Origin: Escherichia coli O127:H6 str. E2348/69
Lineage (GTDB): Bacteria; Pseudomonadota; Gammaproteobacteria; Enterobacterales; Enterobacteriaceae
DNA: 64,000 nucleotides
NCBI RefSeq assembly: GCF_000026545.1
Contig: NC_011601.1
Reading direction: 5' to 3' (one strand)
Position numbers: made by a program. This document shows positions 40,901-46,900 of this stretch, in pieces (position 1 is the first letter of the stretch; every line of letters starts with the position of its first letter).

Positions 40901-43900
40901 TCCAGCACATATCTACACCGATAACAACGGTGAGTTAATGACGCTGATGCAACGGGAAATGGCAGACGACAACCGTCATCTGCGCAGTATGGAAGCCTTT
41001 ATCAACCACGTACAAGGTAAGCCCGTGATGATAGTCGACGCCGAGCAGGGGTACATCATCCAGCAACTGGTGGCGGCGTTGTATCAATCCGCAGAAACAG
41101 GGATGCGTGTGGAATTATGACCAGGCCAGTAACGTTAACGGAACCCCATTTCAGCCAGCATACCCTGAACAAGTATGCTTCGCTGATGGCGCAGGGGAAC
41201 GGCTATCTTGGGCTTCGCGCCAGCCATGAAGAAGATTACACGCGCCAGACGCGCGGCATGTATCTGGCAGGGCTTTATCATCGGGCGGGGAAAAATGACA
41301 TCAACGAACTGGTGAACCTGCCTGACGTCATAGGGATGGAGATTACCTTGAATGGTGAACTTCTTGCGCTATCCCGCGAAACGTGGCAGCGCGAGCTTGA
41401 CTTCGCCAGTGGAGAATTACGTCGCAATGTCGTCTGGTCTTCAGCCAGCGGCGCACGTTATGCCATTGCCAGCCGTCGCTTTGTTTCGGCAGAACAACTG
41501 CCGCTGATGGCGCTGGAAATCAGCATTACGCCGCTGGACGCTGACGCGTCAGTGCTGATTTCAACAGGCATTGACGCCACGCAAACCAACCACGGACGAC
41601 AACATCTCGACGAAATCCAGATGCGGGTGTTTGGTCAGCATCTGATGCAGGGGATCTACACCACCCAGGATGGGCGCAGTGATGTGGCCATCAGCTGTTG
41701 CTGTAAGGTGAGCGGTGATGTGCAGCAATGCTATACCGCCAAAGAGCGCCGTTTACTGCAACATACCTGCGCGCAGCTTCACGCAGGTGAGACGTTGACG
41801 CTGCAAAAACTGGTGTGGATCGACTGGCGGGACGACAGACAAGCCGCTTTAGACGAATGGGGCAGTGCGTCGCTTCGTCAGCTTGAAATGTGCGCGCAGC
41901 AGAGTTACGACCAACTTCTTGCAGCATCAACAGAAAACTGGCGTCAATGGTGGCAGAAACGTCGTATCACGGTAAACGGCGGCGATGCGCACGATCAGCA
42001 AGCGTTAGATTATGCGCTTTATCACCTGCGCATCATGACGCCTGCCCACGATGAGCGCAGCAGCATTGCGGCGAAAGGTTTAACCGGCGAAGGCTACAAA
42101 GGCCACGTTTTCTGGGATACAGAAGTATTTTTGCTACCGTTCCATCTGTTTAGCGAACCGACGATTGCCAGAAGTTTACTGCGTTATCGCTGGCACAACT
42201 TGCCTGGCGCGCAGGAGAAAGCGCGACGCAACGGCTGGCAGGGCGCTCTGTTTCCGTGGGAAAGCGCGCGTAGCGGCGAAGAAGAGACGCCGGAATTTGC
42301 TGCCATTAACATTCGTACCGGGTTGCGGCAAAAAGTGGCCTCTGCGCAGGCGGAACATCATCTGGTGGCCGATATCGCCTGGGCGGTTATTCAATACTGG
42401 CGGACCATGGGGGATGAAAGTTTCATTGCTCATGAAGGCATGGCGCTACTTCTGGAGACGGCAAAGTTCTGGATTAGCCGCGCGGTGAGGGTTAACGACC
42501 GTCTGGAAATTCATGATGTTATTGGGCCAGACGAATATACCGAACATGTCAATAATAACGCCTTCACCAGCTATATGGCGTATTACAACGTCCAGCAGGC
42601 GCTGAATATCGCTCGTCAGTTTGGCTGTAGCGACGACGCGTTTATTCATCGTGCAGAAATGTACCTCAAAGAACTGCGGCTGCCAGAAATTCAGCCCGAC
42701 GGCGTTTTGCCGCAGGATGATTCGTTTATGGCTAAGCCGGTGATTAATCTGGCGAAATACAAAGCGGCGGCGGGGAAGCAAACCATTCTGCTGGATTATT
42801 CACGCGCAGAAGTGAACGAGATGCAGATCCTCAAACAAGCTGATGTGGTGATGCTCAATTACATGCTGCCGGAGCAGTTCTCAGCGGCATCGTGTCTTGC
42901 CAATCTGCAATTTTATGAACCGCGCACTATTCACGACTCGTCATTAAGTAAAGCAATCCACGGCATTGTTGCCGCACGCTGTGGCCTGCTGACCCAAAGT
43001 TATCAGTTCTGGCGCGAGGGGACTGAAATCGATCTTGGTGCTGATCCACATAGCTGTGATGACGGTATCCACGCTGCCGCAACTGGCGCTATCTGGCTGG
43101 GGGCGATTCAGGGTTTTGCCGGGGTGAGCGTGCGTGACGGTGAATTACATCTCAATCCGGCGTTACCTGAGCAGTGGCAACAGTTGTCTTTCCCTCTGTT
43201 CTGGCTGTCTCTTATACACAAATCCCCACCCGGGGATTTGTGATGTCTGTCAGTCTGCTTTAGGGGGACTCTTTCCATCCGGTAGTTTCCTTCCTCCCCG
43301 GCAGCGATTTTTTGAACTTTTTCCTCACCTGTTGATCTTCTCTTATATTTCATTTTCTTCGGGTCTGTTATGGTACTTTCTGATTGTTATTCATGGGCTA
43401 ACGAGCAGTTTGGACATGCCCGTCTCGGTGATCCGCGTCGTACACGACGCCTTGTGTCACTGGCCTCTTCTCTCGCTCAGCATGCAGGTCTTTCTATTGT
43501 GAAATCATCCCAGTCCACTGCTCAGGTTGAAGGTGCGTACCGCCTGATACGTAACCCGTCTGTGTCCCCGCAAGCCATTGCCGAAGCCGGATTTACCGCC
43601 ACTGTAAGGGCATGTGAGGCTCATCCGCTGCTCCTCGCGCTGGAAGACACCACCACCATTAACTTCAGTCACAGTACGGCATCTGATGACCTGGGGAATA
43701 CCACCACTAACCCGAAGACGCGCGGGCTGCTGGCTCACTCTGTCCTGATGTACGCCCCCGACAGCGCCCTGCCAGTCGGTCTTATCGAACAGCAGCGCTG
43801 GAGTCGTGCCACGGACACCTACGGTGTTAAGCACCAGCGAAAAGAACGTCCCTATGAAGAAAAAGAAAGTTACCGCTGGCAGCAGGCTTCGGAGCGCATG

Positions 43901-46900
43901 GCCGAACGGCTGGGGGAGATACAGAAACGGGTAATCACTGTCTGTGACCGGGAAGCGGATATCTGGCATTACCTGCATTATAAAGTCAGCCACGGGCAGC
44001 GCTTCGTGGTGCGTGCAGCACAGAATCGCCGGCTGGAAGAAGCACCCGGCAAGCTCTTCGAACTGCCGGAAGTCCTGGCAACCGCGGGAAGCCACACGCT
44101 GAATGTGATGCAAAAAGGCGGGCGGGCAGCCCGCCAGGCCCGGATGTTCATCAGTTACAGCGAAGTCAGCATAAAAAATCCCGACAACAGCGGCCAGGCG
44201 CTCCCGCTCACGTATGTCTGTTGCCGGGAGCAGGCAGAGGACGGCGCCTGCTGGCATCTGCTGACGTCAGAAAAAGTGGCGAGTGCCGCCGATGCGCGAC
44301 GTATCGTCAGCCATTACGAGCGACGCTGGCTGATAGAGGAATACCACAAGGCGTGGAAAAGTGGTGGTACATGTGTGGAATCGCTGCGAATGCAGACCCG
44401 GGATAACCTCGAGCGCATGGTGGTTATCAAGGCGTTTATCGCGGTGCGGGTGCTGGGCCTGCGGCAGGGCGGTATCAGTGAAGAAACACAAAATGACAGC
44501 TGTGAGAAAATACTGACGCCGACAGAGTGGAAACTGCTGTGGGTTAAGCTGGAAGGAAAACCGCTTCCGTCACAGATGCCGACACTGAAATGGGCCTGTC
44601 TGAAACTGGCGAAACTGGGGCGATGGCATGACAGCAAACGCACCGGTCGCCCCGGTTGGGTAGTCATGTGGGATGGCTGGTTCAGACTTCAGGATATGGT
44701 TGAGGGTTACCTGGTGATGAAGTCTCTTGATCAGGAGATCTGATCAAGAGACAGCTGTTCTGGCAGGGCTGCGAATTACAGGTCACTCTCGACGCGCAGC
44801 GTATTGCGATTCGAACTTCTGCGCCCGTTTCACTGCGCTTGAACGGTCAGCTTATTTACGTCGCTGAAGAATCTGTTTTCTGTTTGGGGGATTTTATTTT
44901 GCCCTTCAATGGGACCGCTACCACACATCAGGAGGGTGAATGAAACTGCAAGGGGTAATTTTCGATCTGGATGGTGTAATCACCGATACCGCGCATCTGC
45001 ATTTCAAGGCGTGGCAGCAGATTGCCGCTGAAATTGGCATCAGCATTGATGCGCAGTTTAACGAATCCCTAAAAGGGATCAGCCGCGATGAGTCTCTGCG
45101 GCGCATTCTGCAGCACGGGGGCAAAGAGGGCGACTTTAACCCGCAGGAGAGGGCGCAACTGGCGTATCGCAAAAATCTGCTTTACGTCCACTCACTGCGC
45201 GAACTGACGGTTAATGCTGTGCTGCCCGGCATTCGCAATTTGCTGGCTGATCTCCGTGCACAGCAGATCCCTGTAGGGCTGGCTTCTGTCTCCCTGAATG
45301 CGCCGACGATTTTAGCAGCGCTGGAGCTGCGCGAGTTTTTCACCTTCTGCGCGGACGCTTCCCAACTTAAAAACTCGAAACCGGACCCGGAAATCTTTCT
45401 CGCCGCCTGTGCCGGACTGGGCGTGCCGCCGCAGGCATGTATCGGCATTGAAGATGCGCAGGCGGGCATTGACGCCATTAACGCCAGCGGTATGCGCTCG
45501 GTGGGGATCGGCGCGGGCTTAACCGGGGCGCAATTACTGTTGCCCTCAACGGACTCCCTGACCTGGCCGCGGTTATCGGCCTTCTGGCAAAACGTATAGC
45601 AAAGGAATCAACATGGCTCAGCTTTCGTTACAACATATTCAAAAAATCTACGATAACCAGGTGCATGTGGTGAAGGACTTCAACCTGGAAATTGCCGATA
45701 AAGAGTTCATTGTCTTTGTCGGTCCGTCAGGCTGCGGTAAATCGACCACCCTGCGCATGATTGCCGGGCTTGAGGAGATCAGCGGCGGCGATCTGTTGAT
45801 CGACGGCAAACGAATGAATGACGTTCCAGCCAAAGCGCGCAATATTGCGATGGTGTTCCAGAACTACGCGCTGTATCCGCATATGACGGTCTACGACAAC
45901 ATGGCGTTTGGCCTGAAGATGCAAAAAATCGCCAAAGAGGTGATTGATGAGCGGGTGAACTGGGCGGCGCAAATTCTCGGCCTGCGAGAGTACCTGAAAC
46001 GCAAGCCGGGCGCGCTTTCTGGCGGGCAACGCCAGCGTGTGGCGCTCGGGCGGGCGATTGTGCGCGAAGCGGGCGTGTTTTTAATGGATGAACCGCTCTC
46101 TAACCTTGATGCCAAGCTGCGCGTGCAAATGCGCGCAGAGATCAGCAAGCTGCATCAGAAACTGAACACCACCATGATCTACGTGACCCACGATCAGACC
46201 GAAGCGATGACCATGGCGACGCGGATTGTGATTATGAAGGATGGGATTGTTCAGCAAGTAGGTGCGCCGAAAACGGTTTATAACCAACCTGCGAATATGT
46301 TTGTTGCCGGATTTATTGGATCGCCTGCGATGAATTTTATTCGCGGCACGATCGATGGCGATAAATTCGTTACGGAAACGCTTAAATTAACCATACCCGA
46401 AGAGAAATTAGCGATTCTGAAAATACAGGAAAGTTTGTATAAGCCCATCGTGATGGGAATACGCCCGGAAGATATTCATCCGGACGCGCAAGAAGAAAAT
46501 AACATTTCCGCCAAAATTAGCGTGGCAGAATTAACCGGTGCTGAATTTATGCTCTACACCACGGTTGGGGGGCACGAACTGGTGGTCCGTGCTGGTGCGT
46601 TAAATGATTATCATGCAGGAGAAAATATCACTATTCATTTTGATATGACTAAATGTCATTTCTTTGATGCAGAAACGGAAATAGCAATTCGCTAAATACA
46701 GGGGGAAGGCATTCCCCCAGGATAATACAAGGAACAATAATGAAAAATTTATTACCCTGTACCGCACTGGTGATGTGTGCGGGAATGGCCTGCGCACAGG
46801 CCGAGGAAAAGAACGACTGGCACTTTAATATCGGCGCGATGTACGAAATAGAAAACGTCGAGGGTTATGGCGAAGATATGGATGGGCTCGCGGAGCCTTC

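What the first reader, a model, noticed from the sequence alone, without database searches (positions are those of the whole stretch)
43205..44754. IS element with a divergent Tn5-like transposase but a Tn5-identical inside end
The 457-aa transposase shares the Tn5 Tnp landmark motifs (GDPRRTxRLV, VCDREADI, RWxIEE(F/Y)HKAWK, DSKRTG) but is clearly a different protein, roughly 35–45% identical by eye. One 19-bp terminus, CTGTCTCTTGATCAGATCT, is identical to the IS50 inside end as I recall it, including both GATC Dam sites. The other, CTGTCTCTTATACACAAAT, is close to the IS50 outside end and mosaic end. The transposase stop codon overlaps the IE as in IS50. I cannot name this element from memory, so it may be an uncatalogued or poorly described IS50-group member; conserved ends suggest possible cross-recognition with Tn5 transposase.
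Basis: partly seen in the sequence, partly recalled or inferred. Interest (0 to 1): 0.55.

Follow-up and report, generated by a model that had tools for sequence, protein, structure and literature searches.

The report
ISEc13, a known Tn5-related insertion sequence
The element is an intact copy of ISEc13, an already catalogued jumping gene related to Tn5, sitting in the ycjT gene of the reference pathogen E. coli E2348/69; its Tn5-like ends are real but are shared by the whole family, so the finding is ordinary.

Summary
Window 43205-44754 is a 1550-bp insertion sequence with a 457-aa Tn5-type transposase, 42% identical to Tn5 Tnp. Its right end is identical (19/19) to the IS50 inside end, its left end matches the IS50 outside end at 17/19, and the stop codon lies inside the right end. 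It has a 9-bp target duplication, and the empty site exists in other genomes.

The suggestion that it may be uncatalogued fails. The DNA is 100% identical to loci that RefSeq labels "IS4-like element ISEc13 family transposase". The whole window equals E. coli O127:H6 E2348/69 chromosome 1463214-1527213. That chromosome has about 30 matching places, including a second identical inverted copy at 22315-23864.

The IS50-identical end is not peculiar to this element. Among 43 distinct relatives recovered from other gammaproteobacteria (38-58% protein identity), the same 19-mer ends elements of Photorhabdus, Xenorhabdus, Parashewanella and an uncultured bacterium, and nearly all share CTGTCTCTTGATCA.

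Cross-recognition with Tn5 transposase is plausible but untested.

Two by-products: family-conserved hairpins overlap both ends, and a GATC sits in the putative promoter.

Novelty: already known. Interest: low.

The parts
43205..44754 (+). Complete ISEc13 copy (1550 bp) inserted in ycjT, in the same orientation as the ycj operon
   Evidence: 100% identical over 1550 bp to RefSeq-annotated ISEc13 copies. This insertion site is present only in the 3 E2348/69 / O127:H6 assemblies among 5426 complete E. coli genomes.
43196..43204 (.). Left copy of the 9-bp target-site duplication CTGTTCTGG
   Evidence: The empty site, reconstructed with one copy of the duplication, is 100% identical to intact ycjT in other genomes.
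44755..44763 (.). Right copy of the 9-bp target-site duplication CTGTTCTGG
43205..43223 (+). Left 19-bp terminal repeat CTGTCTCTTATACACAAAT (outside-end-like; no GATC)
   Evidence: 17/19 with IS50 OE taken from L002. It is the commonest left end among 43 family members.
43217..43242 (+). Perfect hairpin CACAAATCCCC-ACCC-GGGGATTTGTG overlapping the inner part of the left end
   Evidence: The homologous hairpin plus a T-run occurs in 24 of 43 relatives. In 19 distinct left ends bearing the AAATCC motif, 6 of 12 pairs show compensatory changes.
43312..43339 (+). Putative transposase promoter: TTGAAC (43312-43317), 16-nt spacer, GATCTT (43334-43339) containing a Dam site. Inferred, not shown.
   Evidence: TTGAAY-N16-GATC is conserved upstream of the ATG in 33 of 43 relatives and is nearly invariant among ISEc13 variants. 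The generic sigma-70 scan found no promoter at its thresholds.
43370..44743 (+). Transposase gene, 457 aa (WP_000244358.1). Catalytic D93, D193, E323; YREK signature Y316-R319-E323-K330.
   Evidence: Pfam PF14706 + PF01609 + PF02281. NCBIfam NF033590, 514 bits. PDB Tn5 Tnp E = 6e-84. Residue map.
44722..44752 (+). Perfect 13-bp palindrome GTCTCTTGATCAG-GAGAT-CTGATCAAGAGAC. It is an inverted internal copy of end positions 3-15 abutting the right end, and carries three GATC sites (44729, 44737, 44742).
   Evidence: A comparable palindrome is present in 21 of 43 relatives and absent from IS50.
44736..44754 (-). Right 19-bp terminal repeat CTGTCTCTTGATCAGATCT, identical to the IS50 inside end; contains the transposase stop codon
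41117..43204 (+). 5' part of ycjT (kojibiose phosphorylase), truncated by the insertion; annotated as a pseudogene in E2348/69
22315..23864 (-). Second, 100% identical ISEc13 copy in inverted orientation, between an MFS efflux gene and sapF, flanked by an 8-bp duplication ATCCTGAG (22307-22314 and 23865-23872)

Best explanation
Window 43205-44754 is an intact, autonomous copy of ISEc13, a catalogued member of the IS50 group of the IS4 family. It lies in the chromosome of enteropathogenic E. coli O127:H6 strain E2348/69, where it has inserted into and truncated ycjT.

Inferred by homology with Tn5: its 457-aa DDE transposase binds the two 19-bp ends, dimerises through its C-terminal domain, and cuts the element out through hairpin intermediates. 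It then pastes the element into a staggered target cut, leaving an 8- or 9-bp duplication.

Inferred from conserved GATC placement, not shown: expression and end use are probably restrained as in IS50 by Dam methylation. One GATC lies in the putative -10 region and three lie at the right end. A structured left end probably stops transcripts entering from outside.

Unlike IS50, the element has no start codon for an N-terminally truncated inhibitor protein.

The IS50-identical right end and OE/ME-like left end are ancestral characters conserved across the family, not a special link to IS50.
For: Identity
- 1550/1550 identical to loci annotated 'IS4-like element ISEc13 family transposase' in E2348/69 and its plasmid.
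- The window equals NZ_LT827011.1:1463214-1527213.

Family membership
- Tn5-type three-domain Pfam architecture.
- E = 6e-84 to Tn5 Tnp structures.
- DDE and YREK residues and the DNA-binding arginines are conserved.
- Ends, size and duplication length fit the IS50-subgroup definition in PMC2266710 Table 1.

Mobility
- Two 100% identical copies lie in the window.
- Both insertion sites are found only in the three O127:H6 assemblies.
- Both empty sites are found intact in thousands of other genomes.
- 27-30 matching places per E2348/69 chromosome.

Family-wide end conservation
- 43 distinct elements tabulated. The IE 19-mer is also the right end in Photorhabdus, Xenorhabdus, Parashewanella and a MAG.

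Regulation
- TTGAAY-N16-GATC in 33 of 43 elements.
- Left hairpin with covariation.
- Tn5 M56 corresponds to Q52, and the next in-frame Met is residue 127.
Against: ISfinder itself could not be queried, so identity to the ISfinder reference entry rests on the RefSeq label and on the literature's use of the name.

No experiment on ISEc13 transposition, Dam dependence or promoter position was found. The eight papers that mention the name only list it (four of them read).

The generic promoter scan found no sigma-70 match.

Three of four ISEc13 copies examined have 8-bp rather than 9-bp duplications, which differs from the strict 9 bp of Tn5.
Confidence: 0.95

Rival explanations
1. It is an uncatalogued or new IS50-group element.
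For: The protein is only 42% identical to Tn5 Tnp. No paper in the searchable library describes the element's biology; the papers that name it only list it.
Against: 100% DNA identity to RefSeq loci named ISEc13. Full-length copies occur in 873 of 5426 complete E. coli genomes. The name is used in ISfinder-derived tools (PMC7729385).
Confidence: 0.02
2. It is a chimera: an ISEc13-like element that acquired its right end from IS50 by recombination, which would explain the 19/19 identity.
For: The IE is the only 19/19 window in the ISEc13/IS50 alignment, and the rest is about 65% identical in aligned columns.
Against: The same 19-mer ends elements in Photorhabdus, Xenorhabdus, Parashewanella and an uncultured gammaproteobacterium whose transposases are 41-57% identical to ISEc13's. 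Identity with IS50 stops at the 19-bp end (plus one adjacent base), and the adjoining C-terminal coding sequence differs. The stop codon and last two codons (xxx-ATC-TGA) lie inside the end in all of these elements, so the end is under double constraint.
Confidence: 0.02
3. The two inverted copies (22315-23864 and 43205-44754) form a Tn5-like composite transposon that moved the 19.3-kb sap-psp-ycj segment.
For: The two arms are 100% identical and inverted. MobileElementFinder often predicts ISEc13-bounded composite transposons in Salmonella (PMC7729385).
Against: Each copy has its own duplication and its own empty site in other genomes. The outer flanks (CATCCTGAG and CTGTTCTGG) do not match. 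The enclosed genes are core E. coli genes in their usual order. The Dam-sensitive IE-type ends face outward.
Confidence: 0.02
4. It is an inactive relic that merely retains family motifs.
For: No transposition assay exists. Many E. coli and plasmid matches are partial copies at 90-95% identity.
Against: The ORF is intact with all catalytic residues. Both ends and the duplication are perfect. Identical copies sit at lineage-specific sites. The three E2348/69-derived assemblies differ in number of matching places (27, 29, 30).
Confidence: 0.04

Closest known systems
ISEc13 (IS4 family, IS50 group), as annotated in E. coli E2348/69 and many E. coli, Salmonella and E. fergusonii plasmids
   Same: The 1550 bp are identical. 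The transposase is WP_000244358.1.
   Different: Nothing found. Only the insertion site (ycjT) is particular to the O127:H6 lineage.
IS50 / Tn5
   Same: Same three-domain transposase with DDE and YREK residues. Right end identical to IE, left end 17/19 with OE. The stop codon lies inside the right end. GATC sites lie at the right end and in the promoter region. A 9-bp duplication flanks this copy.
   Different: - 42% protein identity, and about 65% DNA identity in aligned columns.
- No Met at the inhibitor (Inh) start: Tn5 M56 corresponds to Q52.
- K40, E54 and Y237 are not conserved.
- The leader is 165 nt, against 92 nt in IS50.
- Perfect hairpins overlap both ends, and IS50 lacks these.
- Other copies have 8-bp duplications.

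Unnamed IS50-group elements of Vibrio, Photorhabdus, Xenorhabdus, Alishewanella and Shewanella (e.g. V. parahaemolyticus plasmid NZ_CP060091, L003 1071-2575)
   Same: 49-57% protein identity. The Vibrio element's left end is identical to ISEc13's for 23 nt. These elements share the left-end hairpin, the TTGAAC-N16-GATC motif and the right-end palindrome. From my own recollection only: a Vibrio harveyi transposase of this type, recognising CTGTCTCTTGATCACAAGT, is used commercially for tagmentation. I could not confirm this in the library.
   Different: In most of them the left hairpin is followed directly by a T-run and then TTGAAC. In ISEc13 a further ~65 nt of structured sequence lies between the hairpin and the T-run.

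Membership tests
IS4 family, IS50 subgroup | DDE catalytic triad with the Y-(2)-R-(3)-E-(6)-K signature | tested here: met
   D93, D193 and E323; Y316, R319, E323 and K330. All are invariant with Tn5 D97, D188, E326, Y319, R322 and K333. The definition is from PMC2266710.
IS4 family, IS50 subgroup | Tn5-type domain architecture (N-terminal DNA-binding, DDE core, C-terminal dimerisation) | tested here: met
   PF14706 (E = 2.8e-19), PF01609 (4.8e-7) and PF02281 (9.7e-5). NF033590 scores 514 bits against a cut-off of 160.
IS4 family, IS50 subgroup | Terminal repeats starting 5'-CT and fitting CW------Y---CA-A--W-; size 1350-1550 bp | tested here: met
   Both 19-mers fit the consensus at positions 1, 2, 9, 13, 14, 16 and 19. 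Length is 1550 bp (PMC2266710 Table 1).
IS4 family, IS50 subgroup | Direct target repeats of 8-9 bp | tested here: met
   9 bp at ycjT. 8 bp at the sapF copy and in two other ISEc13 copies.
IS4 family, IS50 subgroup | Cut-and-paste transposition through DNA hairpin intermediates | not testable with these tools
   Inferred from conservation of W298, W323 and the YREK equivalents. Needs biochemistry.
ISEc13 (named element) | Sequence identity to loci publicly annotated as ISEc13 | tested here: met
   100% over 1550 bp to E2348/69 chromosome and plasmid copies labelled 'IS4-like element ISEc13 family transposase'.
ISEc13 (named element) | At least 95% identity to the ISfinder reference entry | not testable with these tools
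   ISfinder is not among the tools. Only the RefSeq label and use of the name in the literature were available.
IS50 itself (isoform of IS50) | Near-identity to IS50 (isoform level) | tested here: not met
   42% protein identity. 65% DNA identity in aligned columns.
IS50 itself (isoform of IS50) | Internal start (Tn5 M56) for the Inh inhibitor protein | tested here: not met
   Tn5 M56 aligns with Q52 (codon CAG). There is no ATG, GTG or TTG in frame nearby, and the next Met is residue 127.
Composite transposon bounded by two ISEc13 | One shared target duplication flanking the whole unit | tested here: not met
   The outer flanks differ, and each copy has its own duplication and its own empty site.

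The most novel reading that the evidence does not exclude
ISEc13 transposase and Tn5 transposase might cross-recognise each other's ends. The right end is identical to IE. The left end differs from OE and from the mosaic end at 2 of 19 positions each. Most Tn5 residues I recall as DNA-contacting are conserved.

If so, mini-Tn5 insertions could be remobilised in strains such as E2348/69 that carry about 30 ISEc13 matches, and ISEc13 could be driven by Tn5 Tnp.

In addition, the family-conserved left-end terminator hairpin and the right-end palindrome could be regulatory parts that, as far as I could find, have not been described. They might stand in for the missing Inh protein.
Probability: 0.25. 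Interest if true: 0.4.

Novelty: already known. Interest (0 to 1): 0.15.

Why it matters
As an identification it does not matter much: this is a named insertion sequence in a reference genome.

It has modest practical value. ISEc13 is abundant in EPEC E2348/69, with 27-30 matching places per chromosome. Its ends are nearly those used in Tn5 mutagenesis and tagmentation, so cross-mobilisation is worth a simple test.

The family comparison also changes how the IS50 ends should be read. The outside-end/inside-end asymmetry (a GATC-free left end, a GATC-bearing right end containing the stop codon) and the GATC in the promoter region were worked out in Tn5. Here they appear as ancestral features of a large group of simple insertion sequences, not as adaptations of the composite transposon.

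Tried and rejected
- A 9-bp duplication for the second copy (22315-23864) was rejected. Only 8 bp (ATCCTGAG) are shared, and the empty site reconstructs perfectly with 8 bp.
- I tried shifting the element boundary by one base (an extra C at the right or G at the left) to reconcile the 8-bp and 9-bp duplications. No single boundary fits all four copies.
- The generic sigma-70 scan found no promoter in 43100-44900. The promoter proposal therefore rests only on family conservation.
- The terminator-like hits on the minus strand inside the gene are not significantly enriched: 5 found against 1.7 ± 1.9 expected.
- An Rfam search of 43000-45000 at E ≤ 1 found nothing.
- Reznikoff et al. 2004 (PMC532410) and, under the PMC id I recalled for it (PMC2612414), the E2348/69 genome paper are not held.
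- The supplements of PMC2266710 hold only captions.
- Literature searches for Tn5 homologues in tagmentation, for the sequence CTGTCTCTTGATCACA and for the Vibrio harveyi transposase gave nothing usable.
- The first IS50 copy fetched (L001) is rearranged at its 5' end and lacks the OE, so L002 was used instead.
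Full report
**1. The observation**

- The element spans 43205-44754, 1550 bp.
- Its left end is CTGTCTCTTATACACAAAT. Its right end, read inward, is CTGTCTCTTGATCAGATCT.
- One ORF, 43370-44743, encodes 457 aa with GDPRRTRRLV, VCDREADI, RWLIEEYHKAWK and DSKRTG.
- The stop codon TGA (44741-44743) lies inside the right end.

I checked the IS50 ends against real Tn5 copies on plasmids rather than against memory. IS50 at L002 1085-2618 has OE CTGACTCTTATACACAAGT and IE CTGTCTCTTGATCAGATCT (the IE is also in L001).

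- The right end is therefore 19/19 with IE.
- The left end is 17/19 with OE. It is also 17/19 with the engineered mosaic end CTGTCTCTTATACACATCT, a sequence I give from my own knowledge.

Protein identity to Tn5 Tnp is 42%. phmmer against Tn5 transposase structures gives E = 6e-84. Pfam finds the three Tn5 domains PF14706, PF01609 and PF02281.

In a global DNA alignment of the two elements, 65% of aligned columns are identical. The only 19/19 window is the IE.

The element is flanked by a 9-bp duplication, CTGTTCTGG. Deleting the element and one duplicate gives 400 bp that are 100% identical to uninterrupted ycjT-pgmB in other E. coli; 4971 genomes carry the site.

**2. What it is**

The 1550 bp are 100% identical to copies in E. 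coli E2348/69, in both the chromosome and the plasmid. RefSeq annotates those copies as "IS4-like element ISEc13 family transposase".

The whole 64-kb window equals NZ_LT827011.1:1463214-1527213, E. coli O127:H6 EPEC E2348/69. The protein is WP_000244358.1.

Distribution:
- Full-length copies (at least 80% coverage) occur in 873 of 5426 complete E. coli genomes.
- Partial matches occur in 2991 genomes.
- E2348/69-derived chromosomes have 27-30 matching places.
- Copies also sit on Escherichia, Shigella and Salmonella plasmids.

ISEc13 is a name in routine use in ISfinder-derived annotation (PMC7729385, PMC4764695, PMC9837563, PMC11476756). I found no paper that studies its biology.

The element meets the published definition of the IS50 subgroup of the IS4 family: YREK signature, 5'-CT ends fitting CW------Y---CA-A--W-, size 1350-1550 bp, and 8-9-bp direct repeats (PMC2266710 Table 1).

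**3. Evidence that it moves**

- A second, 100% identical copy lies inverted at 22315-23864.
- Both insertion sites are present only in the three O127:H6 assemblies among 5426 genomes.
- Both empty sites are intact elsewhere.
- Each copy has its own duplication, so the two copies are independent insertions rather than a composite transposon.
- The spacing between the copies is the same in all three assemblies, so no inversion has occurred between them.

The second copy has an 8-bp duplication (ATCCTGAG), not 9 bp. So do a 98%-identical copy in E. coli RM14723 and a 95.7%-identical copy on a Salmonella plasmid. ISEc13 thus makes 8- or 9-bp duplications. This agrees with the subgroup definition but differs from the strict 9 bp of Tn5.

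**4. Are the Tn5-like ends special?**

No. A scan of one genome per species recovered many relatives. From these plus the window element and the two plasmid elements (IS50 in L002, the Vibrio element in L003) I could define both ends of 43 distinct elements. They have 40-57% protein identity to ISEc13 and 40-58% to Tn5 Tnp.

Right ends:
- The exact IS50 IE 19-mer is the right end in IS50, ISEc13, several Photorhabdus and Xenorhabdus elements, Parashewanella curva and an uncultured gammaproteobacterium.
- Most others read CTGTCTCTTGATCACAAGT or CTGTCTCTTGATCACATCT.

Left ends:
- The commonest left end is exactly that of ISEc13.
- None of the 43 left ends has GATC at positions 10-13, whereas nearly all right ends have GATC there.

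The OE/IE asymmetry known from IS50 is therefore an ancestral character of the family. The identity between ISEc13 and IS50 reflects strong shared constraint: the right end also encodes the last two codons and the stop. It does not reflect a recent exchange.

**5. How it most likely works**

Shown:
- An intact transposase with D93, D193 and E323 and the YREK residues.
- Conservation of the equivalents of Tn5 R26, R27, R30, E58, R62, W298, W323 and K330. The functional roles of these residues are from my knowledge of the Tn5 literature.
- Intact ends and target duplications.

Inferred by homology: cut-and-paste transposition through a dimeric synaptic complex and hairpin intermediates, as in Tn5.

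Regulation is inferred from conservation.

- *Promoter.* Upstream of the ATG, 33 of 43 elements have TTGAAY, 16 nt, then GATC. In ISEc13 this is TTGAAC at 43312-43317 and GATCTT at 43334-43339. This stretch is almost invariant among ISEc13 variants, while the sequence upstream of it varies. In IS50, Dam sites overlapping the transposase promoter and the IE are known to lower expression and IE use (my knowledge). The same layout here suggests the same control. The generic promoter scan did not call this site.
- *Inhibitor protein.* There is no equivalent of the Inh start codon; Tn5 M56 aligns with Q52.

**6. By-products: hairpins at both ends**

*Left end.* A perfect 11-bp hairpin occupies 43217-43242 and starts inside the 19-bp repeat.
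- In 24 of 43 relatives the homologous hairpin (AAATCCC...GGGATTT) is followed directly by a T-run and then TTGAAC. That is the shape of an intrinsic terminator facing incoming transcription.
- In an alignment of 19 distinct left ends, 6 of 12 pairs show compensatory changes.
- ISEc13 keeps the hairpin but has about 65 nt of further structured sequence before the T-run. The 171-nt leader folds with z = -2.7.
- In a 95.7% variant the end changes A18 to G, which makes a G-U pair in the stem. This hints that the structure acts as RNA.

*Right end.* A 13-bp perfect palindrome at 44722-44752 is an inverted internal copy of end positions 3-15.
- A comparable palindrome exists in 21 of 43 relatives but not in IS50.
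- It covaries between ISEc13 and the Vibrio element at end position 15: G in ISEc13, C in the Vibrio element.
- Relatives without the palindrome encode a similar C-terminal peptide, K-S-(L/V)-D, with other codons (read from the sequences). The fixed TCT-CTT codons in the palindrome-bearing elements therefore point to selection on the DNA or RNA.
- Its function is unknown. A 3' mRNA stem-loop or a non-cleavable second transposase-binding site are possibilities.

**7. Verdict**

The element is ISEc13 and is already known. The idea of an uncatalogued element fails, and the end identity is a family trait. Cross-recognition with Tn5 transposase is plausible but untested. Interest is low (0.15), with a small practical angle for Tn5 mutagenesis in ISEc13-rich strains.

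Noticed in passing
window 22315-23864 (- strand), flanks 22307-22314 and 23865-23872: A second ISEc13 copy, 100% identical and inverted relative to the first, lies between an MFS efflux gene and sapF. Its target duplication is 8 bp (ATCCTGAG), not 9. The empty site reconstructs perfectly with 8 bp.
   Followed up: yes
window 43217-43242; L003 1086-1114 and 23 other loci: A hairpin starting at about nt 13-16 of the left terminal repeat is conserved across the ISEc13/Vibrio/Xenorhabdus branch of the IS50 group. In most members it is followed by a T-run and then TTGAAC (terminator shape), with compensatory changes in 6 of 12 pairs. I found no description of it.
   Followed up: partly
window 44722-44752; right ends of 21 of 43 related elements: A perfect palindrome is formed by the right end and an inverted internal copy of its positions 3-15. 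It overlaps the last codons and the stop of the transposase gene. It is conserved in many relatives and absent from IS50. Function unknown.
   Followed up: partly
window 43196-43204 / 44755-44763; L086; L087: ISEc13 copies show 8-bp duplications in three of the four copies examined and 9 bp in one. In all four, the base after the right end is C.
   Followed up: partly
window 43243-43311 versus L086 (Salmonella plasmid variant): The stretch between the left hairpin and the T-run/TTGAAC is absent from most relatives. It varies among ISEc13 variants, including a 12-bp indel, whereas the ~60 bp upstream of the ATG is nearly invariant.
   Followed up: partly
window 9622-10080 (- strand): An IS200C-family transposase gene lies between pdeR and rnb, according to the RefSeq annotation of the identical E2348/69 region.
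   Followed up: no
window 12267-13393 (- strand): yciW is annotated as a frameshifted pseudogene in E2348/69.
   Followed up: no
window 14804-22296: A TetR regulator, a three-gene RND efflux system and an MFS efflux gene lie between fabI and sapF. Only 2040 of 5426 genomes cover at least 80% of the junction query on this side, so the cluster looks accessory.
   Followed up: no
window 44117-44135 (- strand): A GC-rich stem followed by TTTTT lies on the antisense strand inside the transposase gene. The number of terminator-like sites in the region is not significantly above shuffles (5 against 1.7 ± 1.9).
   Followed up: no
L001 1380-1480 (plasmid NZ_OK605583): This IS50L copy of Tn5 lacks its outside end and carries a tandem duplication of about 90 bp covering the start of the transposase gene.
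   Followed up: no
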